From IMG/VR virus record IMGVR_UViG_3300032287_001394: 64,000 bases of DNA. One strand, 5' to 3'. The notes beneath the pieces were generated by a model. The model did no database searches and was not told the DNA's origin. It was given only the letters and a program-made list of their open reading frames with translations. A program made the translations under genes and the position numbers. The DNA is from a virus. Shown piece by piece: positions 2,368-29,042 of the stretch (position 1 is the stretch's first letter; each line of letters begins with the position of its first letter).

Positions 2368-2390
2368 GGTTATATTAATTGGAGAGATTG

Positions 2391-4502
2391 ATGACAAAAA
2401 CAGACTTAGTAGCAAAATTATTAGCAAACGAAAACCTTACGGTCATCCAGGGCCCTGTTAAGACTGCTTCGTTTGATATAAAGAATCGTGTCCTTAGACT
2501 TCCGCAATGGAAGGACATGACTGACGATCTTATTGATATGTTAGTTGGTCATGAAGTTGGTCATGCACTTTACACTACTCTTGAAGAGTACTCAACAAAA
2601 AATCCCCATAAAGATCTTGCTCATTTCGCAGGTTATATGAATGTGCTTGAAGACGTACGTATCGAAAAATTAATGAAGCGTCGTTATCCTGGCCTTCGTA
2701 AGTCATTCAACGCAGGATATAAAGAATTAAACACGCGCGACTTCTTTGGCATCGCTAACGGCGACTTTAAGAATATGTTATTGATCGACAAGATCAATTT
2801 ATATTTTAAAGCTGGTTATAACTGCGGTGTTATATTTAATGACATCGAAAAAGCATTCGTTAGACGCGCTGAAGAGACTGAAACATGCGATGATGTTATC
2901 ACTTTAGCTAAAGAGATATATGACTATTCTAAGAAAGCTATGGAAGATAAGATCGAAGAGTTAAAAGCTCAATCAGACGATCACGAAGAATTTGACGAAG
3001 AAGAGTCTCAAGAGCAAGGTACATCAAACGAACAAGACTTTGATGCTGACGAAGAAGAGACCGATGAGATGGAAGACGAATCACCAGCACCATCAACTCA
3101 AAACGATCCATTGCAAGACCTCGAAGATTCATTAGAAGATCAGTTAGAATCACAAACTGAAAAGAACCTTAAGAATAAGATCGAAGAGTTAGCTGATACT
3201 TCTATCGAATACAAGTACATCACTATCCCTAAACAAATTAAAGTTAGTCCTTTAGTTACCTATAAAGAAGTATTCGAACAACATGCTGCATATCAAACAG
3301 AATGGGATGGCAACGGCGGTTATAAACTAATCTCTGAAGACGACATCGAACGTGCTGAAAAGTTTAAAGCATCATCTAAGAATATCGTTAGCTATCTTAT
3401 CAAAGAATTTGAGATGCGTAAGTCTGCACAAAATTATAAACGCGCTAAGGTTTCAAAGTCTGGTTCATTAGACGGCAAGAAACTTTATGCGTATAAACTA
3501 AATGATGACATATTCAAACAAGTAATGACTATCCCTAACGGTAAGAATCATGGTATGATATTCTTATTGGATTGGTCAGCGTCAATGGATCATGTGTTAA
3601 GACCTACTATCGAACAGGTTATCTCATTAGCTATGTTTTGTAGAGGCGCACAGATCCCATTCCAAGTATTTGCATTCACAAATGGTTGGTCTGATTCTAA
3701 GTATAGAAACGAAGATGGTTCTCGTTTAATTAATTATAGCGATACTGAGATTGACACATTTGGTCTTACTATGATGGAATTATTCTCATCTAAGATGACT
3801 CAATCAGAGTTTAACAAGATGATCAATATTAGTTTATCACGTTACTTCAACAATCTTGGTAACTTTAAAACATCTGGTACTCCATTGAATTCAGCATTAG
3901 CATGGTTATATAATTACATTCCTGAGTTTAAATCTAAGAACGGTATCGAAAAGACGACACTCATCACATTGACTGATGGCGAAGGCGAGTACTTAAGAAC
4001 TGGTACAGATCAAGTTAGAACGCGTAGAATTTTTGGCGAGTCTATTAAAGACTATGTGACAGTTAAGCCATTCTTATCTGACGTAGTAACTCATAAGAAC
4101 TACCCAATGTCTGAGAACGCTGAGCAAACTAAGTCACTCTTACAGATGATTAAGGATAGACACAATATCACCACTGTAGGTTTCTACATTACTAAAGCAT
4201 CATATAGAAACTTACACAGTGCTTTAGTAGCACACTATGGTTATGGTCAGCATGTATCGACATTCGCTATCGAAGATCTTAAGAGAGATATGAGACGTAA
4301 TGGTTTCGCCTCACTTAAGGATACAGGCCGTGACGAGCTCTTCATAGTGGCTGACTCCAAAGCTAAGATTGAAGATGACAAAGAGCTTACCATAGGTAAA
4401 AAAGAGTCAGCTGCCAGGATCGCCCGGGAGCTCACCAAGATGCTCTCAAATAAGAAGACCAGTCGTATATTACTTAATCAATTCATTGGCTTGGTGGCAT
4501 AG
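2391..4502 (+). CDS. CobT-like protein: HEXXH metallopeptidase domain, acidic linker, vWA domain
   Basis: HEVGH, DWSAS MIDAS-like motif, LTDG; paired with a MoxR/CobS ATPase as in aquatic T4-like phages. Confidence 0.85.
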   Translation: MTKTDLVAKLLANENLTVIQGPVKTASFDIKNRVLRLPQWKDMTDDLIDMLVGHEVGHALYTTLEEYSTKNPHKDLAHFAGYMNVLEDVRIEKLMKRRYPGLRKSFNAGYKELNTRDFFGIANGDFKNMLLIDKINLYFKAGYNCGVIFNDIEKAFVRRAEETETCDDVITLAKEIYDYSKKAMEDKIEELKAQSDDHEEFDEEESQEQGTSNEQDFDADEEETDEMEDESPAPSTQNDPLQDLEDSLEDQLESQTEKNLKNKIEELADTSIEYKYITIPKQIKVSPLVTYKEVFEQHAAYQTEWDGNGGYKLISEDDIERAEKFKASSKNIVSYLIKEFEMRKSAQNYKRAKVSKSGSLDGKKLYAYKLNDDIFKQVMTIPNGKNHGMIFLLDWSASMDHVLRPTIEQVISLAMFCRGAQIPFQVFAFTNGWSDSKYRNEDGSRLINYSDTEIDTFGLTMMELFSSKMTQSEFNKMINISLSRYFNNLGNFKTSGTPLNSALAWLYNYIPEFKSKNGIEKTTLITLTDGEGEYLRTGTDQVRTRRIFGESIKDYVTVKPFLSDVVTHKNYPMSENAEQTKSLLQMIKDRHNITTVGFYITKASYRNLHSALVAHYGYGQHVSTFAIEDLKRDMRRNGFASLKDTGRDELFIVADSKAKIEDDKELTIGKKESAARIARELTKMLSNKKTSRILLNQFIGLVA

Positions 4503-4531
4503 TCCAATCAAATCAATAACTTAAGGGCCTA

Positions 4532-4560
4532 TGTACTTTAAATACAAAACAGGATATAAT
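4532..4560 (+). promoter_or_regulatory. Early-type promoter preceded by IHF-like box (4510-4523)
   Basis: TGTACT-N17-TATAAT. Confidence 0.85.
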
Positions 4561-4591
4561 GGTTTTATATTAATAACGGAGAGACTACATT

Positions 4592-5791
4592 ATGAGATAT
4601 AAAAGTGAACAAAAAACAGAATTGCAAGCTAAGCTGTTTGAGACTTATCCAAGCCTAGCTGCCAGCCCCCAAATTAATAAGGCAGACCTTATGGCCGTTG
4701 TGAATTCATTAGGGTATGATACTATGCCATGGTTCTTGATAGCTGGTCAAGCTTCACGCGGTGTTTACAACGTGAAAGTGCCTGCAGTAATTCCAAAGCC
4801 AGTGCTTTCAGTGGTTCAAACATCAGTGAAAGTTGAAAGTCAAGCTATCGTAAACTTCGATAAGCCTGAAACATTGATCCCTTCCAAGGATCCAAACTAT
4901 GTACCATTTGGTAACTACTCAGATCTCGAGATGATTATTAAAGCTGGTCTTTTCTATCCATCTTATATCTCTGGCCCTACCGGTAACGGTAAGTCAACCA
5001 TGATTGAACAGATCTGTGCTAAGTTTAATAAGCCACTCATTCGTGTTAACCTTAACATGATGTCTGACGAAGAGCAACTAATTGGTGCTAAGACTCTTCA
5101 AGATGGTAACGTAGAGATCGTGGAAGGTCCTGTGCTAATCGCGATGCGTAATGGTTATACATTATTGCTTGACGAAGTCGATGCTGGTAGTGCTAACACA
5201 TTATTGTGTTTACAACCGATCCTCGAAGGCAAGCCTTACTACTTTAAACTTAAGAACGAAGTTATCGTTCCAGCTGCTGGCTTTAACATCATTGCTACAG
5301 CTAACACTAAAGGTAAAGGTTCAGACGATGGTCGATACATCGGTACTAACGTACTTAATGAAGCATTCTTAGAACGTTTCGCAGTGACATTCGAACAAGA
5401 ATATCCTAATGCTGCCACTGAAATGAAGATCGTTAAGAACCTTATGAAGCATTACGAATGCGAAGATCAAGACTTTGCAGACACCCTTATTAAATGGGCT
5501 GATGCTATCCGTCGCACATTCGAAGATGGTGGTGTAGACGAGACTATCACAACACGTCGTATGACTCATATCGTACGAGCTTTCTCGATCTTTAAGAAAA
5601 AAGAAAAAGCTATTGAGTTGTGCTGTAATCGTTTCGATCCACAAACTAAAGCTGCATTCATGGATGTATTTGATAAGATATCAAACCCAGCACCTGAGGT
5701 GGTAGTGGATCCTAATGTAAGTGATGCTGCAGCTTATACTATTACAGATGCTTATAATGCTGCTACAGCAGGACAGACGGTAACACCATGA
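4592..5791 (+). CDS. CobS-like MoxR-family AAA+ ATPase
   Basis: GPTGNGKS, LLLDE, TANTKG, AFLERF. Confidence 0.9.
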   Translation: MRYKSEQKTELQAKLFETYPSLAASPQINKADLMAVVNSLGYDTMPWFLIAGQASRGVYNVKVPAVIPKPVLSVVQTSVKVESQAIVNFDKPETLIPSKDPNYVPFGNYSDLEMIIKAGLFYPSYISGPTGNGKSTMIEQICAKFNKPLIRVNLNMMSDEEQLIGAKTLQDGNVEIVEGPVLIAMRNGYTLLLDEVDAGSANTLLCLQPILEGKPYYFKLKNEVIVPAAGFNIIATANTKGKGSDDGRYIGTNVLNEAFLERFAVTFEQEYPNAATEMKIVKNLMKHYECEDQDFADTLIKWADAIRRTFEDGGVDETITTRRMTHIVRAFSIFKKKEKAIELCCNRFDPQTKAAFMDVFDKISNPAPEVVVDPNVSDAAAYTITDAYNAATAGQTVTP

Positions 5792-6123
5792 GATTTATAG
5801 AATTAAAACCAACACAGAAACAATATGTGGTCGTAGTAATGAATCGCTTCGGTCACAACTATGAAGACATAACATTAGACGATATGAGGTTTTATCATGA
5901 TGAGATGCTTCAAACAAGGAATGCTGGAATGCCTAAGTTAGGTTATCCAAACTGGTTGATTAAACCAGAAAACAAAAAGATTAAAGGCGTTTATGGATTT
6001 CCGAGGCCCACTGACTCGGAATTGGAAGATTTTCACAGTGGAAATGTAGAAGCGGTGATTGACTTAACAAAGTTTTCACCATTATTAAATAACGTGATCA
6101 AGGAATACGGCTTAAAACCGTAA
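5788..6123 (+). CDS. Hypothetical protein
   Basis: ATGA-coupled ORF. Confidence 0.7.
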   Translation: MRFIELKPTQKQYVVVVMNRFGHNYEDITLDDMRFYHDEMLQTRNAGMPKLGYPNWLIKPENKKIKGVYGFPRPTDSELEDFHSGNVEAVIDLTKFSPLLNNVIKEYGLKP

Positions 6124-6160
6124 TATATTATGACTATAACAAAAACTATCAAAAAATTAT

Positions 6161-6189
6161 TTAACTTTAATTCACCATTAGTGTATAAT
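6161..6189 (+). promoter_or_regulatory. Variant early promoter TTAACT-N17-TATAAT
   Basis: Same spacing and TTTAA element as the consensus. Confidence 0.6.
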
Positions 6190-6264
6190 GGTTCAGTATC
6201 AGGTAAGACAAGCGACAATCTTATCCGTGTTTCCCGTAAAGTCGCAATTTCAAGGAGTAATAGT

Positions 6265-6516
6265 ATGTCAGCAACAACATCATTAATCAACTACCTTCAA
6301 TCAGGTAAAACAGTAACTGCTAAACAAATCACTGCACGATTTGGTCTTGCTAACCCGCATGAAGCAGTTCGTCAATTACGTATGAAGGGTTATTCAGTTT
6401 ATGCTAATAACTCAACATTATGGAATGGTGAAACAACTACTCGTTATAGATTAGGTACACCTTCACGTAAAATGATTGCTGCAGCTTACGCAGTATTAGG
6501 TGCTTCAGCATTCTAA
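6265..6516 (+). CDS. Small winged-HTH DNA-binding protein
   Basis: AAGGAG SD before ATG 6265; TAKQITARFGLANPHEAVRQLRMKGY HTH-like pattern. Confidence 0.7.
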   Translation: MSATTSLINYLQSGKTVTAKQITARFGLANPHEAVRQLRMKGYSVYANNSTLWNGETTTRYRLGTPSRKMIAAAYAVLGASAF

Positions 6517-6542
6517 GAGTATCAACTCTAGTAAGTCAGTAC

Positions 6543-6568
6543 GAGGAGGCGCAATGCCTCCTCTCTTT
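6543..6568 (+). terminator. Hairpin GAGGAGGC-GCAAT-GCCTCCTC followed by TCTTT
   Basis: 8-bp GC-rich stem after the stop codon. Confidence 0.65.
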
Positions 6569-6612
6569 AGAGTTCTTAATTGAGAGTTCTAAACAGAGGA
6601 GACAACTATATT

Positions 6613-6975
6613 ATGGCAGTAAATGATAAAAAGTGGAATGCTATTTTAGATAAAGAGTTAAAAGAATCACAAAGTAAAGATCACACAGGTGGTCGTAAAT
6701 TTGATGGTGGTAAACTCCAATATGGGTTATTACCTCCTCTTGCATTACGTGAGACAGTTAAAGTATTGACATTTGGTGCAGAGAAGTATGAACCTGACAA
6801 TTGGCGTAGAGTGCCAGAAGGACCTCGTAGATATTTTGATGCAGCTCAGCGGCACCTATGGGCTTATAAAGAAGGTGAGATGTATGATCCAGAAACTGGG
6901 GTGAACCATTTGGCTCATGCTTTATGTTGTATTATGTTTATGTTAGATCTTGATGAAAGTGAGTATGAAGAATGA
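6613..6975 (+). CDS. dATP/dGTP diphosphohydrolase-like protein (DUF5664)
   Basis: GRKFDGGK, FGAEKY..DNW, RHL, DPETG.NHLAHA pattern. Confidence 0.8.
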   Translation: MAVNDKKWNAILDKELKESQSKDHTGGRKFDGGKLQYGLLPPLALRETVKVLTFGAEKYEPDNWRRVPEGPRRYFDAAQRHLWAYKEGEMYDPETGVNHLAHALCCIMFMLDLDESEYEE

Positions 6976-7208
6976 GTAAAAAAAGCAAAAATAAAATGAA
7001 AGCTTGGCGTCGTATGGCTAAAAAATACTATGATGCAGAAAGGGGTGTATGGGTTCGTGTTGGTAGACAGTTAAAAATGTTTACAGATGGATATAAATCA
7101 CCAAGCAATGCTATAGGTTTATTAGGTAATTTATTAAATAATATGGAAGATTCTAGTAAAATTTTGAAACGTTATGAGAAAAAGGTGAAGACAGATGAAA
7201 CTGAGTAA
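6972..7208 (+). CDS. Hypothetical basic protein
   Basis: Overlapping ORF in operon. Confidence 0.6.
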   Translation: MSKKSKNKMKAWRRMAKKYYDAERGVWVRVGRQLKMFTDGYKSPSNAIGLLGNLLNNMEDSSKILKRYEKKVKTDETE

Positions 7209-7854
7209 AGAAACCCTTAGCTTAATTAAAAATTATGCTTCGATTAATAATAACCTGTTATTTAAACCAGGAAATATCTTATCAACCATTGCAGTAAGTA
7301 ACACCATCATGTCATCATCGACGGTGGCCGAGGCATTCCCTAATGAGTTCGGTATCTATGACGTGAACGAGTTCCTTGCGGTCTTATCATTATTCGAAGA
7401 TCCTGATCTTGAGTTCTCAGAAAAAACTGTAGCAATTAAACAAGGTAATAGCAGCATCAAGTACTTTGCTGCAGCGCCAAACTCTATCGTTGTACCTAAG
7501 AAAGAGATCATATTCCCTGAGGCAGAGATCAACTTCAAGTTAGAAGCAAACGTATTAGCCATGATCCTCAAGACTGCACCAATCCTTAAGTCTACAGATG
7601 TAGCACTGTTGGGTGATGGATCAACCATCAATGTAGTAGTTGGTGATAAGAAGAACGCAACGTCTAATGCTTACACATATACCTTAGGCACTACGACTTC
7701 TGTGTTTAAAGTTAACTTAAAGATCGACAACCTTAAGATGGTACCAGGTGACTATGATGTATCCATCTCGTCTAAAAAGATCTCACGCTTTAAAGGTGCT
7801 GGTGATCTAGTATATTATGTAGCGATTGAAGCAGATTCAACATTTGAAGCTTAA
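7195..7854 (+). CDS. 45: Sliding clamp gp45
   Basis: MKLSKETL..KNYASIN, FGIYDVNEFL, YYVAIE; synteny with gp44/gp62. Confidence 0.95.
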   Translation: MKLSKETLSLIKNYASINNNLLFKPGNILSTIAVSNTIMSSSTVAEAFPNEFGIYDVNEFLAVLSLFEDPDLEFSEKTVAIKQGNSSIKYFAAAPNSIVVPKKEIIFPEAEINFKLEANVLAMILKTAPILKSTDVALLGDGSTINVVVGDKKNATSNAYTYTLGTTTSVFKVNLKIDNLKMVPGDYDVSISSKKISRFKGAGDLVYYVAIEADSTFEA

Positions 7855-7872
7855 TTATATTATGGAGTTATC

Positions 7873-8808
7873 ATGCAAGAATACTTATGGGTGGAGAAGT
7901 ATCGTCCTCAAAAAATTGAAGAGTGTATTTTACCGAAAAACTTAAAAGAAACATTTAAGCAGTTCGTCCAAACAGGTGAACTGCCTAACTTCTTATTTTG
8001 TGGTACAGCAGGTGTGGGTAAGACCACAGTTGCCAAAGCATTATGTAACGAGATCGGAGCCGAATATCTACTCATAAACGGATCTGAAGAATCTGGTATC
8101 GATGTCCTTCGAACCAAGATCAAATCATTCGCCTCAACAGTATCATTGACTGACTCAAAGAAGGTCATCATACTAGACGAAGCAGACTATCTAAATCCAA
8201 ACTCAACACAACCAGCACTTAGAGCCTTCATCGAAGAGTTCTCTAACAACTGTCGTTTTATCTTTACATGTAACTATAAGAACCGTATCATTGAACCACT
8301 CCACTCAAGATGTAGTGTGATTGACTTCAAGATAGAGAACACTGAAAAAGCTGAGATAGCTGGAGCATTCTTTAAGCGTACTATAGGTATACTTAAAGCA
8401 GAGAACATCGATGCAGACCAAAAGGTGGTAGCAGAGTTGGTCACAAAGCACTTTCCAGATTGGAGACGTGTACTAAACGAGCTACAACGATATTCAGTGT
8501 CTGGTAAGATCGATGCTGGTATCCTTGTTAACATGACTGAGGACTCGTTCAAAGACTTACTTAAGAACATGAAGGATAAAAACTTTACTGAAGTTCGTAA
8601 GTGGGTAGCCAAGAATGGAGATTCGGAGACTATAAATATATTTAGACAACTATACGACACAGCTTCTGTACACTTGGAGCCAGCTAGTATACCTCAATTG
8701 GTATTAATCCTTGCTGACTATCAATATAAAGCTGCGTTCGTTGCTGATCATGAGCTAAATCTTATGGCCGCACTTACGGAGGTTATGTCATCATGCAAGA
8801 TGAAGTAA
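7873..8808 (+). CDS. 44: Clamp loader large subunit gp44
   Basis: LWVEKYRP, GTAGVGKT, DEAD, SRC motif. Confidence 0.97.
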   Translation: MQEYLWVEKYRPQKIEECILPKNLKETFKQFVQTGELPNFLFCGTAGVGKTTVAKALCNEIGAEYLLINGSEESGIDVLRTKIKSFASTVSLTDSKKVIILDEADYLNPNSTQPALRAFIEEFSNNCRFIFTCNYKNRIIEPLHSRCSVIDFKIENTEKAEIAGAFFKRTIGILKAENIDADQKVVAELVTKHFPDWRRVLNELQRYSVSGKIDAGILVNMTEDSFKDLLKNMKDKNFTEVRKWVAKNGDSETINIFRQLYDTASVHLEPASIPQLVLILADYQYKAAFVADHELNLMAALTEVMSSCKMK

Positions 8809-11708: not shown

Positions 11709-12188
11709 ATGCGAACAACAAACGTTTCATTTGGCCCTATTTGGCCATCATCAGTTGGTTTTGACAACATCATCAATGAGCTAGACGCTTTAATGCATGC
11801 TCAAACACCAACATCAACATTCCCGCCTCACAACATTATTAAAGTAGACGATTATAACTACATCGTAGAATTGGCAATCGCTGGCTTTAATAAACAAGAG
11901 GTAACTATCACCCTTAAAGATTCAGTGCTTGAGATCAAAGGACAAAAAAATCCTGAAGAAGAAGTACAGTATCTACATAAGGGTATTGGTACAAGATCAT
12001 TCGTTAAATCCATCAAGCTTGCTGATACTGTAGAAGTTGTTGGATCAGCTGAGTTTCAAAATGGTGTGTTACGTATAGCTCTTTGTAATGTTATTCCTGA
12101 TTCTAAGAAACCTCGTAATATAGAGATCATAGATGATTTGGTAGTGGTTAAAAAACAAAAAGAGTTATTAGTAGAAAACGATAGTTAA
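11709..12188 (+). CDS. Small heat shock protein (Hsp20/IbpA family)
   Basis: FPPHNI, ELAIAGF, YLHKGIGTRSF, NGVL. Confidence 0.95.
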   Translation: MRTTNVSFGPIWPSSVGFDNIINELDALMHAQTPTSTFPPHNIIKVDDYNYIVELAIAGFNKQEVTITLKDSVLEIKGQKNPEEEVQYLHKGIGTRSFVKSIKLADTVEVVGSAEFQNGVLRIALCNVIPDSKKPRNIEIIDDLVVVKKQKELLVENDS

Positions 12189-12746: not shown

Positions 12747-12775
12747 TGTACTTTTAATCCCATACGGGATATAAT
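12747..12775 (+). promoter_or_regulatory. Early-type promoter of the putative DNA-modification operon
   Basis: TGTACT-N17-TATAAT, 6 nt before ATG (possibly leaderless). Confidence 0.8.
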
Positions 12776-12781
12776 TATATT

Positions 12782-13186
12782 ATGAAATCAGTTCCAGACT
12801 TCATTGAAGGTCATAAGACTTCCAATGATATATTGATCTTAGGCCAATGTCCCTCCTCTAAAACTAAACCGTTTAAGAATGGGACATTTGCACGTCTAAG
12901 TAAATGGTTAGAAGTCGTAGATGTACATGCATTTGCATTTCACAACGTGATACCAGATAAGATCAACAGTTATGATATAAAAGATGTGCAATATAAAAAG
13001 CTGTATACTGTAACATATGGTAGAAAGAAGATCATAGCGTTAGGTGGGTTTGTAGAACGGGTATGTAAGAAGTACAACATACCACACTATAAGATAGATC
13101 ACCCATCTCCACGCAATAGAAATTTAAATGATCCTAAATATGAAGAACAGATGCTAATTAAATTAAGAGATTATTTGAATGATTGA
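12782..13186 (+). CDS. Uracil-DNA glycosylase-superfamily-like protein
   Basis: ILGQCPS, IIALG and HPSPRN motifs. Confidence 0.65.
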   Translation: MKSVPDFIEGHKTSNDILILGQCPSSKTKPFKNGTFARLSKWLEVVDVHAFAFHNVIPDKINSYDIKDVQYKKLYTVTYGRKKIIALGGFVERVCKKYNIPHYKIDHPSPRNRNLNDPKYEEQMLIKLRDYLND

Positions 13187-14345
13187 AACAACGCAATACT
13201 ATGATGAGTATATAAGATACTTTAATCTTGCAAAGGATCAGCAAGAGAAGTGTAATGTATCTCTTAATCCTCCTTATGGTATGACCCCGCATGCAGAATC
13301 AGACATGAACGATGATCTACTACATCATGTTGAACTATACGATGTGGTCGAACGTAAGTATGCAGGATTTTCTCAGATAGTTAATGATTGCTTTTACGGT
13401 TGGACAGAACAACATCCTTATTGGAAAAAGATGGAAGCTGGTAAGATCACCCATCAACGTGATACGGTAGCTAAGAATTGGACAGGCAAGCATGCAGACT
13501 TTAAACTGCCCGAATGGTTGTACATCTTCATCCTACATCGTGTATGTGGTTCTGCGATCAACTATTCTACAAAACCTAGTGGGTACCATAATACCCTACT
13601 ATTCTCGTTACATAACTGTAAGACCATTGAAGACATGATCGAGATGGTGAATAACTATCCATACTCGTTCTATACTTCTGTAGGTTATCAGTTCCCAGCA
13701 TTTCCAAAACCACCAACAGAATCCAAGTATAAACGAGGTGGAGACTATTACCTATCAGAGTATGCACCTCGATTAGCAAGAGAACTTGCAGAATATTTAG
13801 AATCTGGTGGTGAACGATCATTAAGAGAGATTGGCTCATTCATGTTAGATTGGAATGTTAAGAATAACCTAAGACAGTACCACTTCCAATATGCAGCAGT
13901 AGTTGCAGATATTGCAGATTGGTATCCGAAGTATGTAGATAAATCATCACCATTTTACTATGGTACAAATGCAGTAGAGTGTATCTCTTATCTTGCTAAA
14001 CCATCAACTAAGATGAAGCAAGAAGAATTCTTAGATAAGGTTATGGAGAGAATCTATATGGAGACAGGTGCATATCCTTACAATGCTGAAGATGTATGTT
14101 GTGACTTCATACGATGGGTAGAAAATTATGTTCGACCCGGTGCAGATTATAATCATCTTGACTTTGATTCAGTATGGTCATCATGTCGTATTAAAGATCA
14201 TCCATTTGGTAGACAAGAAGCTATGCTCAAACTTGGTCTCATAGATACATTTAATAACATGACAGCTCATCCATCAGATGACACTATCATTAAAGCAAAT
14301 AACATGACAGTAGAACAGTATAAGGAATTATGCAAAACACTCTAG
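13179..14345 (+). CDS. Putative amino acid:DNA transferase (aGPT-Pplase-like), paralogue 1
   Basis: FQYAAVVADI, YGTNA, AEDVCCDFIRW resemble the F..y....D / GpGa / E..LCE..KY blocks of the family; adjacent PLP enzyme. Confidence 0.55.
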   Translation: MIETTQYYDEYIRYFNLAKDQQEKCNVSLNPPYGMTPHAESDMNDDLLHHVELYDVVERKYAGFSQIVNDCFYGWTEQHPYWKKMEAGKITHQRDTVAKNWTGKHADFKLPEWLYIFILHRVCGSAINYSTKPSGYHNTLLFSLHNCKTIEDMIEMVNNYPYSFYTSVGYQFPAFPKPPTESKYKRGGDYYLSEYAPRLARELAEYLESGGERSLREIGSFMLDWNVKNNLRQYHFQYAAVVADIADWYPKYVDKSSPFYYGTNAVECISYLAKPSTKMKQEEFLDKVMERIYMETGAYPYNAEDVCCDFIRWVENYVRPGADYNHLDFDSVWSSCRIKDHPFGRQEAMLKLGLIDTFNNMTAHPSDDTIIKANNMTVEQYKELCKTL

Positions 14346-15316
14346 CTCGATTCATTGAAAATGTAGAATACAGAAACATTACCTATAAAGGTACAAGTCC
14401 TGTAGTATTAAAAGATGGTAAGCCTACAGAATCTTGGATGAAGGATTGGCCACTCGAAAAAAGATTAGATAAGTTCTTTGAGTTCTGTCAAGAGTTTGAT
14501 CTTAGACGAGATCAATTACTTGCTGAAGACTATCAGATATTCTCACACCGACTCCATTGGCATGAGCATCCGTTCTGTGATATCATGAAGAAGGTCACAG
14601 ATCCTAAGTTAAGATTGTGGTACACACTTACCTTTTCATTTAGTAACGAACACTGGGGAACCCTAACACGGTTGATGTATCAAGGTCCAGAAAACTTGCG
14701 CGAACACTTTAAAGAGAATAGACATGCACGTAATGATCTATTCCAAATCTATTACCCTAAGAACACGTTAGTTAAGGATTGGTTGATAGATGGTCCTAAG
14801 AAAGCTGCTGAGGAAATGTGGGAGTTTCTAGAAAAACACAGACATAGATTAGAACGACCATACACTATGATGGAGTATGCTAAACTATTAGAGAAGTATT
14901 TCAAAGAGAAACAAAACTTTAGGAGTCCATTATACCCATGCAAGAATACTGCACGATACATGGCTATGGCATATCCAGACATCGTAGATCCTGAGTCAGT
15001 ACTGTTTGGTGGTACAGGGCACTTTGATGGTATGCATCAAATATTTGGTGTTAACTTAAACGGTAAAGTACAGTATGAGATCGATCCTAACGGTCAGTTC
15101 ATACCGCGTAATAAGAACGGTGAATTATGGTTGGCACAGATGCATCAGTTAAGAGATGATGTACGTAATCCAATGTTATCGCAAAAGATGTTGAACATTG
15201 AAGATAAGACATGCTTCTTCTATAAACACATAGCTATTAGTCATGGTGTTAAATCACCTACTAAGCGTATCCCTTATTCGTGGATATTCCCTGAAACTTT
15301 TAGCTTAAGGAAATAA
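14330..15316 (+). CDS. Putative amino acid:DNA transferase-like protein, paralogue 2
   Basis: YPDIVDPES..GGTG and IEDKTCFFYKH align with YPKYVDKSS..YGTN and AEDVCCDFIRW of paralogue 1. Confidence 0.5.
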   Translation: MQNTLARFIENVEYRNITYKGTSPVVLKDGKPTESWMKDWPLEKRLDKFFEFCQEFDLRRDQLLAEDYQIFSHRLHWHEHPFCDIMKKVTDPKLRLWYTLTFSFSNEHWGTLTRLMYQGPENLREHFKENRHARNDLFQIYYPKNTLVKDWLIDGPKKAAEEMWEFLEKHRHRLERPYTMMEYAKLLEKYFKEKQNFRSPLYPCKNTARYMAMAYPDIVDPESVLFGGTGHFDGMHQIFGVNLNGKVQYEIDPNGQFIPRNKNGELWLAQMHQLRDDVRNPMLSQKMLNIEDKTCFFYKHIAISHGVKSPTKRIPYSWIFPETFSLRK

Positions 15317-16215
15317 TGAGAACATTCGTTGAAGGTGTAAACAAAGAAGTAGGCATGATGACATGGCCAGAAGCCAAAGATTATTACTTATCTTTGTGTG
15401 AAGGATGGACACCGTATAACCCAGATCCAGTTGTCATCGAGCATGAAGGTGTACGAGTGGTTCGAGATGATCTTATCGTTGGCACAAAGACAAGAGCCGG
15501 CGATTTGCTTGCAGCCAAGATCCCAAACGATACGCTAGTTTATGTACAACCAAGAGTAGGACTTGCTGGTGTATCTCTATGTGATGTAGCAAAGATACAT
15601 GGTAAAAAGATCGTATTGTTTATGCCATCATCTAAACAGATCTCACATCATCAAGCATGTTGTATAGAGCGTGGAGCTGAAGTACACTTTGAACGGATAG
15701 CAGCGATGCCTAACTTAAACTTATATGCTAAGAAGTATGCAGAAGAGAATGGTTATGCATTCATCCCTCTTGGATTAAAGCATGAGTTAGCAACAGCTGG
15801 TATTGTGTATGCTGCATCACGCATCCCCGAACCAGATGAGGTGTATGTAGCTATAAGTACTGGTGTACTATCGCGTGCATTACAGATAGCATGGCCAAAT
15901 GCAAAGTTTCATTCGGTTGCAGTAGCACGTAACTTACAAGAAGGTGAATTAGGTAGAGCAGAGTTCATATCAGAACCGCTTGAGTTTGCAACACCAGAAA
16001 AGCTTGAGAACTTGCCACCGTTCCCAACAGTACGTTCATACGATGCTAAAGTTTGGAAATATATACCTAAGAACACAGGAAGAAACATCCTCATGTGGAA
16101 TGTAGGCACAGACCCAGTATTAAACGATTATAGTATTATTGATAAAACAGATTCATATCGCAAATGGAAAAAAGATGAAAGTATTACTCACACAGCCACT
16201 CTCGCCGGTTTCTAA
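15316..16215 (+). CDS. PLP-dependent enzyme (fold type II, TrpB-like)
   Basis: RDDLIVGTK with candidate Schiff-base Lys, VAISTGVL loop. Confidence 0.75.
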   Translation: MRTFVEGVNKEVGMMTWPEAKDYYLSLCEGWTPYNPDPVVIEHEGVRVVRDDLIVGTKTRAGDLLAAKIPNDTLVYVQPRVGLAGVSLCDVAKIHGKKIVLFMPSSKQISHHQACCIERGAEVHFERIAAMPNLNLYAKKYAEENGYAFIPLGLKHELATAGIVYAASRIPEPDEVYVAISTGVLSRALQIAWPNAKFHSVAVARNLQEGELGRAEFISEPLEFATPEKLENLPPFPTVRSYDAKVWKYIPKNTGRNILMWNVGTDPVLNDYSIIDKTDSYRKWKKDESITHTATLAGF

Positions 16216-17218
16216 TAAGATCCACTCACACAAAGCCTCACAAGGCATTATCTATGCAGACCAATTAAGGAACGCTGGATATGATGTGACGGTGCACATG
16301 ACCGGTAAACAACTATACGATTATAATGAATATGATATAGTTGCTCTCTATCATGGTAACGACTGGGGTGGATCACTCAACCTATTCGGTGGATTAGAGA
16401 ACTATGCAAATATCGAATACATCATAGCACTATCAAACTTTAATGGTGAAGTATGGTCACTCGCTATAGACATGCCAGATTATCATAGTATGTTATATCC
16501 TCGTGTAGACAAAGCACGTAAGGAAGGTAAGAAGTTAAATCGCGATTGGTTACAAATTAATTGGGGTAACCTTGAACTAATACAAAAACAAGCTAAGACG
16601 CTTGATCCCAACCTCGCTAAGAAGTATCCTAAGATTGCTATAGGCGATTCACATGCCATTTGTATGTATCGCCCAGGATGGATGAACGTATCTACACCAT
16701 TTAAGACATTACATGGCGCATTAAAGATGGGGTTCGAGTCATTCATACCTGTCGGAGAATACAACGCGATCGAGACATACTTCGGTAACATCGATGTACG
16801 TCATCATCTCATGAGATTTCCTGAAGAACATACACTAGACCTCGCTAAGAGGTATGTAGAAGAGTGTGTAAGGATTAGCACGGTATATGGAGCACACGTT
16901 ACGATATGGGAACTATTACCTATTGAGAATGAATCACGTGTATTACCAAAGACGGGTTATTATAAAGGACTTCCATTCTATGGTACATGGGATGAACGTG
17001 AAGGTCGTCGTAAACTATTCAACCAATACATCAAAGACCATCATGAGGTATATGAATGGACTTCAGGTCTATTGAACTCTAAGGGCGAACTAGACTTTGA
17101 ATACATGGAGAAACCAAAGTCTGTCCACTTGTCCCGGGCGTCATACCCCTATTGGACTGGAGCTGATTGGAATGCTCCCAAGCCAATCCCCGGCGGACTA
17201 GAATCATTCTTTTCATAA
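16175..17218 (+). CDS. Fusion of T4 beta-glucosyltransferase-like N-terminal domain and SGNH/GDSL-like domain
   Basis: DYNEYD...LNLFGG resembles BGT DVNDYD...INFFGG (recalled); IGDSH, GNID, SVHL SGNH-like blocks. Confidence 0.5.
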   Translation: MKVLLTQPLSPVSNKIHSHKASQGIIYADQLRNAGYDVTVHMTGKQLYDYNEYDIVALYHGNDWGGSLNLFGGLENYANIEYIIALSNFNGEVWSLAIDMPDYHSMLYPRVDKARKEGKKLNRDWLQINWGNLELIQKQAKTLDPNLAKKYPKIAIGDSHAICMYRPGWMNVSTPFKTLHGALKMGFESFIPVGEYNAIETYFGNIDVRHHLMRFPEEHTLDLAKRYVEECVRISTVYGAHVTIWELLPIENESRVLPKTGYYKGLPFYGTWDEREGRRKLFNQYIKDHHEVYEWTSGLLNSKGELDFEYMEKPKSVHLSRASYPYWTGADWNAPKPIPGGLESFFS

Positions 17219-17246: not shown

Positions 17247-17275
17247 TGTACATTAAATAGCTTATTTGGTATAAT
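17247..17275 (+). promoter_or_regulatory. Early-type promoter with inverted IHF-like box at 17216-17230
   Basis: TGTACA-N17-TATAAT. Confidence 0.85.
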
Positions 17276-26323: not shown

Positions 26324-26714
26324 CATACAGGGATGTGCAATACTTGGTATTGGCGGTGCATATCAAACTGTAGATACTGTGACCACAGGTGCAACAGCAA
26401 TTTCGTATGGAACTACTGGTAAAGGCATCAGTGATCATGCCATCAGTTATGCAGTAGGTAAAGATTGTAGGATTTTTAATATATTTAAAAACACTAAAGT
26501 ATGTAGAATTCATGTAACTTATAAGGCGCCTAAATATGAAATGTCAGATTTGCAAGAAGGAAATAGACAAGAACTGCAAGTGGAAACCTTGCCAATTATT
26601 AATTCACCTAATAAAAAGGAAAAACTAAATGTCACAAAATTGGGTAAAAGACATGAACGACATGCACGCAAAGTTCGGTGTGCGAGAAGTCGTGTCAAAA
26701 ATGGATGCAAATAA
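26283..26714 (+). CDS. Putative lipoprotein
   Basis: Lipobox-like IQGC; overlaps both neighbours. Confidence 0.5.
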   Translation: MLKRKLLLSLSLVSIQGCAILGIGGAYQTVDTVTTGATAISYGTTGKGISDHAISYAVGKDCRIFNIFKNTKVCRIHVTYKAPKYEMSDLQEGNRQELQVETLPIINSPNKKEKLNVTKLGKRHERHARKVRCARSRVKNGCK

Positions 26715-27030
26715 ACTTACAGAGTTCTTAGAATTCCGTATTGGTTGTTTGCAAGAAGAACTAGACGAACTTAAGGCAGCAAAAAATGGTGATGATGCAG
26801 TTGATGCGCTGATCGACTTATCTGTATTTGCTATCGGTACATTGGATCTATTTGGTATCGATGCTGAGATGGCATGGAACAGAGTATACGCTGCAAATAT
26901 CTCCAAAGAAGTGGGTATCAAAGAAGCTCGCCCTAATCCATTAGGATTACCAGATCTTATTAAGCCAGAAGGATGGACTGCACCAACACATAAAGATAAT
27001 ATCGGTGCATTTGAAAAGATCTATGACTGA
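26629..27030 (+). CDS. MazG-like (PRA-PH family) dNTP pyrophosphohydrolase
   Basis: EELDE, DALID, ANISK, KPEGW..P. Confidence 0.85.
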   Translation: MSQNWVKDMNDMHAKFGVREVVSKMDANKLTEFLEFRIGCLQEELDELKAAKNGDDAVDALIDLSVFAIGTLDLFGIDAEMAWNRVYAANISKEVGIKEARPNPLGLPDLIKPEGWTAPTHKDNIGAFEKIYD

Positions 27031-27560: not shown

Positions 27561-27911
27561 ATGACAAAGCAATATTCAAGACCTTCGGCAAACATCTTAT
27601 TAGAAGCTGCCGATATCCAAGAAAAGAAAGGCAATGACTATAACAATGCTGCAAGTCGGGTACAACAAGCCGACTACTATGAGCATGGTGTATGGACAAT
27701 CCTTGACATCATCAAAGCAAAATACCTTAGAATGGTATCTGTATTAGAAGCACAAGAAGCTGGTGGTCAACCAAACTATGAATCAGTTGAAGACTCTGCA
27801 CTTGACATGATTAACTATGCATCATTCGTGGTAGCATATTGTCGTGGTCAAATTCCTGGTCAAGATCCAGATAAAGACATCTTTAATAAGCCAAAGAAGG
27901 ATGTAGAATGA
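27561..27911 (+). CDS. Nucleotide-modification-associated domain 1 (DUF1599-like) protein
   Basis: KKGNDY, K..R, ESVEDS.LD.INYA. Confidence 0.75.
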   Translation: MTKQYSRPSANILLEAADIQEKKGNDYNNAASRVQQADYYEHGVWTILDIIKAKYLRMVSVLEAQEAGGQPNYESVEDSALDMINYASFVVAYCRGQIPGQDPDKDIFNKPKKDVE

Positions 27912-28597
27912 GTACAGTCTATGGTGTAAGTAATATTAGAAACATCTTTAAAGAAAAGTTAAAGATGGAAGAGTTCGTTTATGATAAGACTAGTGTTAAA
28001 ACAATTGAGATTATAAATGCGGCATTCTTTGCTAATCAACCAACAATCTTTGGTACAGTCAATGAAGACTATGTTAAAAGAGAATTAGATTGGTATAAGT
28101 CTATGTCATTAAATGTTAATGATATTCCAGGTGGTCCACCAGAGATTTGGAAGATGGTATCATCAAAAGATGGTATGATTAACTCAAACTATGGTTGGTG
28201 TATATATTCTAAAGAGAATGGTTCACAGTTTATAAAAGTTGTAGATGAATTAGTTCGTAATCCAGGTTCTCGTAGAGCTACTATGATCTATACGCGACCA
28301 ACCATGCATGATGATTATAATATTGATGGAATGTCTGACTTCATGTGCACTAACACAGTCCAATATTTAATTAGAGACTGTAAACTGCATGCTATAGTTA
28401 ACATGAGATCAAACGATGCAGTGTTTGGTTATAAGAATGATTATGCATGGCAAAAGCATGTATTACTTGAAGTATGGGAATACTTAAGAAACGGCTATAA
28501 ACACTTATTAGATCTTAAGATAGGCGATATCTATTGGAACGTAGCATCTCTTCATGTATACGAAAGGCATTTTAAGTTCATCGATGGCAGCGATTAA
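27908..28597 (+). CDS. 42: dCMP hydroxymethylase (T4 gp42-like, thymidylate synthase fold)
   Basis: INSNYGW, DFMCTNTVQYLIRD, MRSNDAVFGYKNDYAWQ; Asp at the base-specificity position as in T4 gp42. Confidence 0.88.
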   Translation: MSTVYGVSNIRNIFKEKLKMEEFVYDKTSVKTIEIINAAFFANQPTIFGTVNEDYVKRELDWYKSMSLNVNDIPGGPPEIWKMVSSKDGMINSNYGWCIYSKENGSQFIKVVDELVRNPGSRRATMIYTRPTMHDDYNIDGMSDFMCTNTVQYLIRDCKLHAIVNMRSNDAVFGYKNDYAWQKHVLLEVWEYLRNGYKHLLDLKIGDIYWNVASLHVYERHFKFIDGSD

Positions 28598-29042
28598 TAA
28601 ATGGTACAAGCGATACCTTAAACTCGCAAAAGAAGTTGCAACGTGGTCAAAAGATCCTAACACTCAAGTTGGTGCAATCGTGGTTGGATCTAAGGGTCAA
28701 ATCTTATCTCAGGGATATAATGGATTCCCACGTGGTATATCTGATTTAAGTAAAAGATTAAATGATAGAGATACAAAGCTATCGCTAATTGTACACGCTG
28801 AGATGAATGCAATATATAATGCTACATATTCAGGTGTATCATTAGACGGTTCAACCATATTCATTCATGGTTTACCAGCATGCTCTGAGTGTGCAAAAGG
28901 AATCATTCAAGTGGGTATAAAGAAAGTAGTAGTATCAAAAGAATGTATTGAAGCTAGACCACATTGGAACGAGTCATGGAAAAAATCCATCGCGATGTTC
29001 GCTGAGGCTGGCATAACAGTTTATGTAATCAATGAGGAGTAA
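28584..29042 (+). CDS. cd: dCMP deaminase
   Basis: SKDPNTQVGA, GYNG, HAE, PACSEC. Confidence 0.93.
   Translation: MAAINKWYKRYLKLAKEVATWSKDPNTQVGAIVVGSKGQILSQGYNGFPRGISDLSKRLNDRDTKLSLIVHAEMNAIYNATYSGVSLDGSTIFIHGLPACSECAKGIIQVGIKKVVVSKECIEARPHWNESWKKSIAMFAEAGITVYVINEE

What the first reader, a model, noticed from the sequence alone, without database searches (positions are those of the whole stretch)
12747..17218. Candidate new DNA hypermodification operon: amino-acid/amine decoration of hydroxymethylcytosine
Seen: one early promoter drives five overlapping genes: UDG-like, two paralogues with shared C-terminal blocks (AEDVCCDFIRW / IEDKTCFFYKH), a fold-II PLP enzyme and a BGT-N/SGNH fusion. 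Established: amino acid:DNA transferases plus PLP decarboxylases build hypermodified THYMIDINES from 5-hmU (ViI, M6, phiW-14 types), using a dUMP hydroxymethylase and a 5-hmU DNA kinase. Here the only hydroxymethylase in the window (27908) is the dCMP-specific T4 gp42 type, and no P-loop kinase is visible. Inference: the phage makes 5-hmC DNA, activates the hydroxyl without a kinase, transfers an amino acid, and trims it with the PLP enzyme. This would give an aminoalkyl-modified cytosine I do not know to be described.
Basis: partly seen in the sequence, partly recalled or inferred. Interest (0 to 1): 0.9.

Follow-up and report, generated by a model that had tools for sequence, protein, structure and literature searches.

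The report
Kinase-less hydroxymethylcytosine DNA hypermodification operon
An uncultured T4-like phage that makes 5-hydroxymethylcytosine carries a five-gene operon related to the enzymes that decorate thymine with amino acids in other phages; an esterase-fold protein stands where the DNA kinase would be, so its DNA probably carries a cytosine modification that has not been described.

Summary
A phage promoter (12747-12775), one of 13 copies of a motif in the window, heads five overlapping + strand genes up to the next promoter at 17247.

- **P1:** a small UDG-superfamily protein with SMUG-like motifs. The sequence matches are weak.
- **P2 and P3:** distant paralogues (hhalign 91%, E 1e-6). The P2 model's best solved match is PaMx11 gp46, an amino acid:DNA transferase (Z 9.4). 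Both keep that enzyme's E-x3-C motif.
- **P4:** belongs to the same PHROG as M6 gp52, the PLP decarboxylase that acts on amino-acid-modified DNA. Its Lys58 aligns with gp52 Lys36.
- **P5:** an N-terminal Rossmann-like domain plus an SGNH domain with the motifs intact (Z 13.4). The likeness to T4 beta-glucosyltransferase is weak.

Context:
- The window's only ThyA-fold enzyme is a T4 gp42-type dCMP hydroxymethylase.
- In 43 of 54 related viral contigs, gp42 lies 3-1766 bp upstream of P2.
- P5 always accompanies P2, and the two occur fused in nature.
- Five near-complete relatives have no 5-hmU DNA kinase and no second ThyA-fold enzyme. Four have ThyX.

Best reading (about 0.6): post-replicative, amino-acid-derived hypermodification of 5-hmC without a kinase. 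The chemistry is inferred and the product is unknown. It is a new variant of a known kind. The scan has noted the same cassette on other DNA.

The parts
12747..12775 (+). Phage promoter (TGTACTTTTAAT...GATATAAT) heading the operon
   Evidence: The pattern has 16 matches in the window against 0.65 expected; 13 share the full motif on the + strand. It lies 6 nt before the P1 start region.
12782..13186 (+). P1 (P0001, 134 aa): small UDG-superfamily protein with SMUG-like motifs GQCPS and HPSPRNRN
   Evidence: PF03167 E 0.0018, below cut-off. Family alignment: invariant P24, F53, N55, H107-P108-S109, N112-R113. Weak profile hits to SMUG1 and to 3ikb. Present in only part of the related loci.
13179..14345 (+). 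P2 (P0002, 388 aa): AADT-like helical (HhH-glycosylase-like) protein with an E304-x3-C308 motif
   Evidence: AF2 pLDDT 95.9. Best solved match is 8z2m_A, PaMx11 gp46 (Z 9.4, rmsd 4.1, 209 aa), followed by HhH-GPD glycosylases. E304, C308 and D309 are at least 90% conserved in 68 sequences. Occurs naturally fused behind P5-like domains.
14330..15316 (+). P3 (P0003, 328 aa): distant paralogue of P2 with an invariant N-x-E291-D-K-x-C295 motif
   Evidence: hhalign of the P2 family against the P3 family: 91%, E 1.1e-6. Motif invariant in 29 sequences down to 45% identity. ESM Atlas neighbours are labelled AADT / PF18723 / PF18724. Absent from 17 of 54 related loci.
15316..16215 (+). P4 (P0004, 299 aa): fold-type II PLP enzyme, homologue of the M6 gp52 / ViI gp226 DNA-acting decarboxylases
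   Evidence: phrog_7093 E 6e-38. M6 gp52 hits the same PHROG at 2e-159. hhalign to M6 gp52: 95.9%, E 5e-9, Lys58 aligned with Lys36. Atlas neighbours are Trp-synthase-beta-like / PALP.
16175..17218 (+). P5 (P0005, 347 aa from ATG 16175; alternative TTG at 16139): N-terminal Rossmann-like domain plus SGNH hydrolase/acyltransferase-fold domain
   Evidence: AF2 pLDDT 91.9. Foldseek 9e-7 and VIA Z 13.4 to SGNH esterases and O-acetyltransferases over residues about 150-328. Invariant GDSH, GNID and H318. Weak PF09198 BGT hit, E 0.0079. phrog_13881 and phrog_17781.
17247..17275 (+). Next copy of the promoter motif; downstream boundary of the operon
27561..27911 (+). Conserved small ORF (116 aa) that precedes gp42 in relatives
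   Evidence: phrog_1485 E 3e-17. Syntenic with gp42 in most related loci.
27908..28597 (+). gp42-type dCMP hydroxymethylase, which supplies the 5-hmC substrate
   Evidence: E 7.6e-83 to T4 dCH (1B49). The NDYAWQ Asp and the FMCTN Cys are kept. PF00303.
28554..29042 (+). dCMP deaminase
   Evidence: PF00383 E 2.9e-21. Lies between gp42 and the operon in many relatives.
26629..27030 (+). MazG/PRA-PH-like NTP pyrophosphohydrolase; possible dCTPase counterpart (inferred)
   Evidence: PF01503 E 3.4e-6. The function is inferred by analogy with T4 gp56 (own knowledge).

Best explanation
The operon is a post-replicative DNA hypermodification cassette that acts on 5-hydroxymethylcytosine.

Supported by homology: gp42 makes hm-dCMP, and the phage polymerase puts 5-hmC into DNA as in T4.

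Inferred steps:
1. P5 is an SGNH-fold enzyme with an apparently intact Ser-His site. It works with, and is often fused to, the base-flipping helical protein P2. It takes the place of the 5-hmU DNA kinase and converts the 5-CH2OH into a better leaving group, most simply an O-acyl ester.
2. P2 and/or its paralogue P3 are AADT-like. Their conserved Cys attacks C6, as in amino acid:DNA transferases, and an amino acid replaces the leaving group.
3. P4, a homologue of the M6 gp52 / ViI gp226 decarboxylases, removes CO2. This leaves an amine-bearing side chain on C5 of cytosine.
4. P1, a SMUG-like UDG-fold protein, is an optional accessory. It probably polices uracil or 5-hmU that arises beside the pathway.

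The product is not known. An aminoalkyl or aminoalkoxy-methyl cytosine is the most likely class.
For: gp42:
- It is of the dCMP type.
- It is the only ThyA-fold gene in five relatives that CheckV rates 89-99% complete.
- It lies 3-1766 bp (median 644) upstream of P2 in 43 of 54 related viral contigs that have enough flank.

P2 and P3:
- The P2 model (pLDDT 95.9) has the AADT PaMx11 gp46 as its best solved match: Z 9.4, 209 residues.
- P2, P3 and eight cultured-phage AADTs share an E-x3-C motif. The C6-attacking thiolate mechanism and PaMx11 residues E243 and C247 are described in PMC8989533 and PMC11472151.
- P2 and P3 are paralogues.
- P3's language-model neighbours are AADT / PF18723 clusters.

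P4:
- It falls in phrog_7093 with M6 gp52 and aligns to it at 95.9%, E 5e-9, with the Schiff-base Lys matched.
- M6 gp52 and ViI gp226 are shown decarboxylases of amino-acid-modified DNA (PMC8989533).

P5:
- It has the SGNH fold with invariant GDSH and GNID.
- All 54 related loci with enough downstream flank carry P5.
- Seven natural P5-P2 fusions exist.
- Aeromonas phage 44RR2.8t has a P5-like N-half joined to a C-half with a weak PF18723 hit, and also carries gp42. This mirrors the kinase-plus-helical-domain layout of 5-hmU DNA kinases.

Kinase: five near-complete relatives give no PF18723 hit and no relative of the M6 kinase.
Against: - No chemistry has been measured; the modified base is unknown.
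- P2 and P3 do not match Pfam PF18724 or PF18723: no hit for either protein, and 1 of 68 family members at E 1e-3.
- hhalign of either family against an 8-sequence AADT alignment is not significant: E 0.055 and 0.037.
- For helical proteins, Z about 9 can arise from a common arrangement, as the tool's own note says.
- HhH glycosylases and a queuine-salvage hydrolase score nearly as high, so a hydrolytic role for P2/P3 is not excluded.
- All characterised AADTs and gp52-type decarboxylases act on 5-hmU derivatives, not on cytosine.
- No acyl donor can be named for P5. O-acylation of DNA by an SGNH enzyme has no precedent that I know of.
- P3, P4 and P1 are each missing in some lineages, so the pathway is not uniform.
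Confidence: 0.6

Rival explanations
1. The same enzymes act on 5-hydroxymethyluracil, not on cytosine. The neighbouring dCMP deaminase converts hm-dCMP to hm-dUMP. 5-hmU then enters DNA, and the AADT-like and PLP enzymes build a thymidine-type hypermodification as in ViI or M6.
For: Every characterised AADT and gp52-type decarboxylase works on 5-hmU derivatives (PMC8989533, PMC11472151). A dCMP deaminase lies between gp42 and the operon in many relatives. P1 keeps the F-x-N pair typical of uracil-recognising UDGs (own knowledge of UDG motifs).
Against: All four relatives that are at least 90% complete encode ThyX. The deaminase therefore has its ordinary role of feeding dTMP synthesis, as cd does in T4 (own knowledge of T4). 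Several loci show gp42 directly before P2 with no deaminase in the flank. No dUMP hydroxymethylase and no 5-hmU kinase was found. A SMUG-like glycosylase would be expected to attack 5-hmU DNA (own knowledge).
Confidence: 0.1
2. P5 is not an activator. It installs the final group itself, for example an O-acyl or O-aminoacyl ester on 5-hmC, with P2 serving only as its DNA-binding, base-flipping module. P3 and P4 are lineage-specific tailoring or unrelated functions.
For: P2 plus P5 is the invariant core (54 of 54 loci), and three loci have only these two. The two are fused in nature. SGNH O-acetyltransferases such as PatB, OatA and OafA are among the structural matches. The 44RR2.8t fusion's C-half weakly hits the kinase helical domain PF18723, not the transferase family.
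Against: The Cys of the E-x3-C motif is at least 90% conserved in the P2 family, fusions included. A pure binding module would not need it. A gp52-type decarboxylase accompanies the core in 51 of 54 loci, and it needs a free alpha-amino acid moiety on the DNA (PMC8989533).
Confidence: 0.17
3. The genes are a DNA repair or anti-defence set, not a modification pathway. P1, P2 and P3 are DNA glycosylases (UDG fold and HhH fold) that remove damaged or host-type bases. P4 and P5 have unrelated metabolic roles.
For: The P2 model matches HhH-GPD glycosylases (AGOG, Ogg, AlkA, EndoIII) at Z 5-8 and the queuine-salvage hydrolase at Z 8.5. P1 is UDG-like. UDGs and base-excision repair accompany pyrimidine-modified phage genomes (PMC13697223).
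Against: Tight operon structure and conserved synteny with gp42. The best fold match is the transferase, not a glycosylase. P4 is homologous to a DNA-acting decarboxylase. The P5-P2 fusions have no rationale in repair.
Confidence: 0.06

Closest known systems
Thymidine hypermodification pathways of phages M6, ViI, PaMx11 and PhiW-14 (5-HMUDK kinase, AADT / aGPT-Pplase clade 2, PLP decarboxylase; PMC8989533, PMC11472151)
   Same: An AADT-like helical enzyme with an E-x3-C motif. A PLP enzyme of the same PHROG as M6 gp52. Operon linkage to the enzyme that makes the 5-hydroxymethyl pyrimidine. Combinatorial gain and loss of tailoring genes, and fusions between pathway enzymes.
   Different: The linked hydroxymethylase is dCMP-specific (gp42 type), not a dUMP hydroxymethylase. 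There is no P-loop 5-hmU DNA kinase and no PF18723 domain. A Rossmann-like/SGNH protein stands in its place. The AADT-like proteins fall outside the Pfam models and come as two paralogues. There is no radical SAM, FAD or GNAT partner.
T4-type 5-hmC glucosylation (gp42 plus alpha/beta-glucosyltransferase)
   Same: T4-like replication module and a gp42 dCMP hydroxymethylase with 58-62% identity to those of cultured T4-like phages. Post-replicative decoration of 5-hmC is the expected role. The P5 N-terminal domain gives a weak hit to the BGT N-terminal domain.
   Different: There is no glucosyltransferase catalytic (UDP-glucose-binding) domain. The BGT hit is below threshold (16.4 against 27 bits). 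The partner enzymes are AADT-like and PLP-dependent, which points to amino-acid rather than sugar chemistry.
SGNH O-acetyltransferases and esterases (PatB, OatA, sialate O-acetylesterase, PAF acetylhydrolase)
   Same: Fold (Z 10-13.4) and conserved block I (GDS) and block III (GxND) motifs in the P5 C-terminal domain.
   Different: The known members act on sugars, lipids or peptidoglycan, none on DNA. P5 has an extra N-terminal Rossmann-like domain and is fused or coupled to a DNA base-flipping module.
SMUG1 / family-3 uracil-DNA glycosylases
   Same: The HPSPRN motif and a GxxP first motif in P1.
   Different: P1 is only 134 aa. The water-activating Asn of SMUG1 is Cys in the window's protein (Ser or Asn in some relatives). 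The statistical support is weak.

Membership tests
Amino acid:DNA transferase (AADT, Pfam PF18724 ADDT, aGPT-Pplase clade 2) | Match to the family HMM above the curated cut-off | tested here: not met
   No Pfam hit for P0002 or P0003 at E <= 0.1. 1 of 68 P2-family members hits PF18724, at E 1e-3. hhalign against 8 cultured-phage AADTs gives E 0.055 and 0.037.
Amino acid:DNA transferase (AADT) | Fold of the solved member PaMx11 gp46 (8Z2M) | tested here: met
   For P2: 8z2m_A is the top match of 48,161 chains, Z 9.4, rmsd 4.1, 209 aligned residues. Caveat: middling Z for a helical protein, and HhH glycosylases follow closely. P3 was not folded.
Amino acid:DNA transferase (AADT) | Conserved Glu-x3-Cys (PaMx11 E243/C247) with the thiolate that attacks C6 | tested here: inconclusive
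   The motif is invariant in 8 AADTs. It is present as E304-x3-C308 in P2 (at least 90% conserved) and E291-x3-C295 in P3 (invariant in 29 sequences). The best local hhalign alignment falls on this motif but is not significant.
Amino acid:DNA transferase (AADT) | N-terminal DxDPxY and ERRxxR motifs | tested here: not met
   Invariant in the AADT alignment. No equivalent is evident among the conserved columns of the P2 or P3 families.
Amino acid:DNA transferase (AADT) | Transfer of an amino acid or amine to an activated 5-hydroxymethyl pyrimidine in DNA | not testable with these tools
   Needs enzymology or LC-MS.
5-hmU DNA kinase (P-loop kinase with or without the PF18723 helical domain) | Presence of such a kinase in the cassette or genome | tested here: not met
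   No PF18723 hit and no relative of M6 gp54 in five relatives that are 89-99% complete. None in the operon or in the neighbouring ORFs scanned.
M6 gp52 / ViI gp226 DNA-acting PLP decarboxylases (phrog_7093) | Family HMM match and aligned Schiff-base lysine | tested here: met
   P0004 hits phrog_7093 at 6e-38 over 246 residues. M6 gp52 hits the same PHROG at 2e-159. hhalign 95.9%, E 5e-9, with K58 aligned to K36. K58 is invariant in 28 sequences.
M6 gp52 / ViI gp226 DNA-acting PLP decarboxylases | Decarboxylation of an amino acid appended to a DNA base | not testable with these tools
   Activity is shown only for M6 gp52 and ViI gp226 (PMC8989533).
SGNH hydrolase / acyltransferase superfamily | Fold, plus block I GDS and block III GxND, plus a catalytic His | tested here: met
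   Foldseek E 9e-7, probability 1.00. VIA Z 13.4. Invariant G157-D-S-H160, G204-N-I-D207 and H318 in 40 sequences. Assigning H318 as the block V His is inferred.
T4 beta-glucosyltransferase (PF09198) | Family HMM above cut-off and a UDP-glucose-binding C-terminal domain | tested here: not met
   16.4 bits against a cut-off of 27, N-terminal part only. No BGT hit with the family profile against PDB sequences. The C-terminal half is SGNH instead.
Uracil-DNA glycosylase superfamily (PF03167) | Family HMM above cut-off; motif A (GxxP with a catalytic Asp/Asn) and motif B (HPS) | tested here: inconclusive
   18.8 bits against 24.3. Profile hits to SMUG1 and 3ikb at E about 0.2. Motif B, HPSPRN, is invariant. 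The polar position of motif A is Cys in the window and Ser or Asn in relatives.
T4 gp42 dCMP hydroxymethylase | Homology to the solved enzyme, with the catalytic Cys148 and the cytosine-specifying Asp179 | tested here: met
   E 7.6e-83 to 1B49. The FMCTN and NDYAWQ motifs are kept, and the 6L18 sequence differs from wild type at that Asp (N for D), which marks the position.

The most novel reading that the evidence does not exclude
These widespread, uncultured T4-like phages replace cytosine with a positively charged, amino-acid-derived 5-substituted cytosine, for example 5-(2-aminoethoxy)methylcytosine, the cytosine counterpart of ViI's base. The pathway would make it by a new activation chemistry: an SGNH-fold enzyme O-acylates 5-hmC in DNA in place of the kinase. 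That would be a new DNA base and the first SGNH enzyme known to act on a nucleobase in DNA.
Probability: 0.3. Interest if true: 0.9.

Novelty: new variant of a known kind. Interest (0 to 1): 0.78.

Why it matters
Amino-acid-derived hypermodification is so far known only for thymine. A cytosine version would add a new natural DNA base. It would also widen the substrate range of AADT-type and gp52-type enzymes. It may reveal a kinase-independent way to activate a hydroxymethyl pyrimidine in DNA.

The cassette is common. About 930, 410 and 1150 protein clusters were found for P2, P3 and P5 in public metagenomes, and there are at least 571 confirmed IMG/VR stretches. Such a base would therefore be abundant in nature. 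It would bear on restriction and CRISPR evasion, on sequencing bias against these phages, and on enzyme tools for labelling 5-hmC.

Cultured Aeromonas phages (44RR2.8t, 31, 25) carry a fused relative together with gp42, which makes the question directly testable.

Tried and rejected
- **DNA and protein searches in cultured phages.** Megablast of the operon and tblastn of P2 against 50,697 phage records found nothing. No cultured phage carries the P2 family at that sensitivity.
- **Direct P2/P3 comparison.** BLASTP of P2 against P3 was not significant. Only profile comparison shows the paralogy.
- **44RR2.8t ORF233c C-half.** BLASTP and hhalign against P2 and P3 showed no significant similarity. 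The link rests on the metagenomic fusions and a weak PF18723 hit.
- **Profile searches against PDB sequences.** The P2-family profile found nothing. The P4 profile found only cysteine synthase at E 0.23. The P5 profile found no BGT.
- **Foldseek of the P2 model against PDB.** Only weak Ogg hits, E 0.1. The exhaustive aligner was needed.
- **hhalign of single M6 gp51 and of an 8-sequence AADT alignment against the P2 and P3 families.** Not significant.
- **Complex prediction of P5 with P2.** No verdict, score 0.00. This is no evidence either way.
- **Whole genome.** None is held for the window. Absence of a kinase was therefore tested in near-complete relatives, not in this phage itself.
- **Literature.** Searches found no description of this cassette, nor of an AADT-type pathway on 5-hmC. 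The library is not complete.

Full report
**What the window is.** All long ORFs lie on the + strand. They include T4-type replication and recombination genes: a Rad50-like gp46, the gp45 clamp, the gp44 and gp62 clamp-loader subunits, RegA, an ATP-dependent ligase, a family-B polymerase, UvsX and a DnaB-like helicase. G+C content is about 37%. No whole genome is held for the window. The operon DNA and P2 have no match among 50,697 cultured-phage records. The proteins are abundant in metagenomes, on contigs up to about 190 kb. This is an uncultured, distant T4-like phage.

**The observation.** Five + strand ORFs run from 12782 to 17218 and overlap by 8, 16, 1 and 41-77 nt. The sequence at 12747-12775 was not picked up by the generic sigma-70 scan. 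It does belong to a phage-specific promoter family, TGTACWTTAAWT-N9-GRTATAAT. The pattern has 16 matches in the window against 0.65 expected by chance. Thirteen of them share the full motif on the + strand. The next copy is at 17247, directly after the fifth gene, and no + strand terminator lies between them. The five genes therefore form one transcription unit. Whether the promoter is 'early' is not shown. PHROG alignments and database homologues begin at Met13 of the TTG-started frame, so P5 most likely starts at ATG 16175.

**The hydroxymethylase.** The ORF at 27908-28597 matches T4 deoxycytidylate hydroxymethylase (1B49) at E 7.6e-83. It keeps the catalytic Cys (FMCTN) and the Asp of NDYAWQ. 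The 6L18 sequence differs from the wild type at that Asp (N for D), which marks the position. From my own knowledge of thymidylate-synthase-family enzymes, this Asp specifies cytosine rather than uracil. A dCMP deaminase follows it. Five related IMG/VR genomes, 89-99% complete by CheckV, each hold exactly one ThyA-fold gene, the gp42 homologue. The four that are at least 90% complete also encode ThyX. Thymidylate is therefore made in the ordinary way, and the deaminase has its usual role. None of the five gives a PF18723 hit or a relative of the M6 5-hmU DNA kinase.

**P2 and P3.** Neither protein has a Pfam or PHROG match.
- P2 has 142 relatives among representatives clustered at 50% identity. 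Its AlphaFold model, built on 68 sequences, is very confident (pLDDT 95.9).
- Foldseek found only weak Ogg-type matches.
- The exhaustive aligner ranks PaMx11 gp46, the 5-PmdU glycinyltransferase and a solved AADT, first among 48,161 chains: Z 9.4, rmsd 4.1 A, 209 residues. The queuine-salvage hydrolase DUF2419 follows at Z 8.5, then about a dozen HhH-GPD glycosylases at Z 5-8.
- The authors of the gp46 structure likewise found glycosylase or lyase folds nearest, at Z about 6 (PMC11472151).
- I aligned eight AADTs from cultured phages: M6 gp51, PaMx11 gp46, PhiW-14 gp109 and five others. They share an invariant E243-T-x-x-C247. PMC8989533 proposes an active-site thiolate that attacks C6.
- The P2 family has E304-x3-C308, at least 90% conserved, fusion proteins included. 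The P3 family has an invariant N-x-E291-D-K-x-C295 in 29 sequences down to 45% identity.
- The profile comparison of P2 with P3 is significant (91%, E 1.1e-6).
- Against the AADT alignment, hhalign is not significant (E 0.055 and 0.037), although its best local alignment for P2 falls on the E-x3-C motif.
- One P2-family member hits PF18724 at E 1e-3 and one hits PF18723 at 0.01. P3's nearest language-model clusters in the ESM Atlas are labelled AADT, with PF18723 or PF18724 on 12-36% of members.

I conclude that P2 and P3 form a new, very divergent branch of the AADT / HMUDK-helical / HhH-like superfamily. They are not members of the Pfam AADT family.

**P4.** It matches phrog_7093 at E 6e-38. 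M6 gp52, shown experimentally to decarboxylate C-alpha-glycinylthymine in DNA (PMC8989533), belongs to the same PHROG at 2e-159. A 28-sequence P4 profile aligns to M6 gp52 at 95.9% probability, E 5e-9, over 220 columns. The invariant Lys58 sits on gp52 Lys36, the proposed Schiff-base lysine. Atlas neighbours are Trp-synthase-beta-like / PALP proteins. In two cultured phages a P4-like domain lies inside a gene annotated as a DNA methylase, which again points to DNA as the substrate.

**P5.** The model (pLDDT 91.9) has two parts.
- *C-terminal domain, about residues 150-328.* It matches SGNH esterases and O-acetyltransferases: Foldseek E 9e-7, VIA Z up to 13.4, with PatB, OatA and OafA among the matches. 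GDSH, GNID and a C-terminal His are invariant in 40 sequences down to 27% identity. An acyl-enzyme type active site is likely to be intact.
- *N-terminal domain.* It is Rossmann-like. Its only link to T4 beta-glucosyltransferase is a sub-threshold Pfam hit (16.4 against 27 bits), and a profile search of PDB sequences did not recover BGT.

**Genomic linkage.** I compared eighty IMG/VR loci that encode P2 relatives.
- gp42 lies upstream of P2, 3-1766 bp away (median 644), in 43 of the 54 loci with at least 2.5 kb of upstream flank.
- Nine of the eleven exceptions are the window's own close clade. There the operon has moved behind the Hsp20 gene, and gp42 sits about 10 kb downstream of the operon.
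- The usual gene order is small ORF, gp42, (dCMP deaminase), (P1), P2, (P3), P4, P5.
- All 54 loci with at least 4.5 kb of downstream flank carry P5. Of these, 37 have P3+P4+P5, 14 have P4+P5, and 3 have P5 alone.
- One sub-lineage has the order P2-P3-P5-P4, with P5 and P4 only 30-40% identical to the window's.
- Seven representatives are natural fusions of a P5-like N-half with a P2-like C-half.
- Aeromonas phage 44RR2.8t ORF233c (795 aa) has a P5-like N-half (32% identity) and a C-half with a weak PF18723 hit. That phage also has a gp42 homologue, 58% identical to the window's.

P2 plus P5 is thus the core. Its layout, a catalytic domain plus a helical base-handling domain, mirrors that of 5-hmU DNA kinases.

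**P1.** The Pfam UDG hit is below threshold, and the profile hits to SMUG1 and to 3ikb are weak (E about 0.2). The family does keep HPSPRN, as SMUG1 does, a GxxPS first motif and an F-x-N pair. The usual catalytic polar residue is Cys here and Ser or Asn in relatives. P1 is missing from many loci. UDG activities accompany pyrimidine-hypermodified phage genomes elsewhere (PMC13697223). I read P1 as an optional accessory that polices U or 5-hmU. This is the weakest assignment.

**Mechanism.**
- *Supported by homology:* synthesis of hm-dCMP, and a gp52-type PLP enzyme with an AADT-like Cys enzyme encoded beside it.
- *Inferred:* 5-hmC in DNA is the substrate. P5 modifies or activates the hydroxymethyl group in place of the missing kinase, most simply by O-acylation. 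P2 and/or P3 substitute an amino acid at the activated position. P4 decarboxylates it.
- *Which amino acid:* there is no radical SAM isomerase. A ViI-like route is therefore more likely than the M6 route, that is, attachment through the side chain followed by decarboxylation.
- *Confidence:* about 0.6 that the cassette hypermodifies 5-hmC. My confidence in each chemical step is lower.

**Rivals.**
- The target is 5-hmU, made by deamination of hm-dCMP (0.1).
- P5 installs the final group and P2 is only its DNA module (0.17).
- The genes are a repair or glycosylase set (0.06).

**Comparison with what is known, and novelty.** The closest systems are the thymidine hypermodification pathways (PMC8989533, PMC11472151). 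The differences are the cytosine-specific precursor enzyme, the absence of the kinase, the SGNH protein, and the divergent paralogous transferases. Literature searches found no description of such a pathway on 5-hmC. Known 5-hmC derivatives in the papers retrieved are glycosyl forms and, in PMC8670742, a different cytosine-modification mechanism. Earlier notes of this scan describe the same cassette on other DNA and reach the same reading. I consulted them after forming mine, and they are not independent evidence. I class the finding as a new variant of a known kind. Interest is high because the cassette is abundant and directly testable in cultured Aeromonas phages.

Noticed in passing
window 2090, 2339, 4532, 10440, 10721, 12747, 17247, 17621, 21197, 23808, 30689, 51908, 52445 (+ strand): A phage-specific promoter-like motif, TGTACWTTAAWT-N9-GRTATAAT, recurs 13 times in intergenic positions on the coding strand. 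The looser pattern gives 16 matches against 0.65 expected by chance. It resembles T4 early promoters.
   Followed up: partly
window 6580-6975 (+): A 131-aa protein with a strong match (E 3e-35) to PF18909, the N-terminal domain of dATP/dGTP diphosphohydrolase. That family is known from phages that alter purine pools. Its role here is unknown.
   Followed up: no
window 26629-27030 (+): A MazG/PRA-PH-like NTP pyrophosphohydrolase (PF01503, E 3e-6) a few genes upstream of gp42. It could be the dCTPase that excludes dCTP, as gp56 does in T4.
   Followed up: no
L001 (Aeromonas phage 44RR2.8t, NC_005135.1) 4408-8388: ORF233c (795 aa) joins a P5-like N-half to a helical C-half with a weak PF18723 hit. 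It lies next to a phage-encoded SSF sodium:solute symporter. The phage also has gp42. No modification beyond 5-hmC is reported for it in the papers searched.
   Followed up: partly
L084 (Erythrobacter phage vB_EliS_R6L, KY006853.1) 6001-6687; also Microcystis phage Mae-JY30: A P4-like PLP domain (33-35% identity) lies inside a large gene annotated as a DNA modification methylase. This suggests a fusion of a PLP enzyme with a DNA methyltransferase.
   Followed up: no
L017, L018, L020-L025, L030, L036, L037, L042: A sub-lineage has the gene order P2-P3-P5-P4. Its P5 and P4 are only 29-41% identical to the window's, while P2 and P3 stay 68-83% identical. The tailoring chemistry may differ there. 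L044, L045 and L048 have only P2 and a divergent P5.
   Followed up: partly
window 11709-12188 (+): A phage-encoded Hsp20/alpha-crystallin small heat-shock protein (PF00011, E 5e-16) lies just upstream of the operon in this clade.
   Followed up: no
window 2379-5791 (+): A 707-aa protein of phrog_459 ('peptidase', E 3e-180) is followed by an AAA_5/CbbQ-like ATPase. Neither is part of the T4 core.
   Followed up: no
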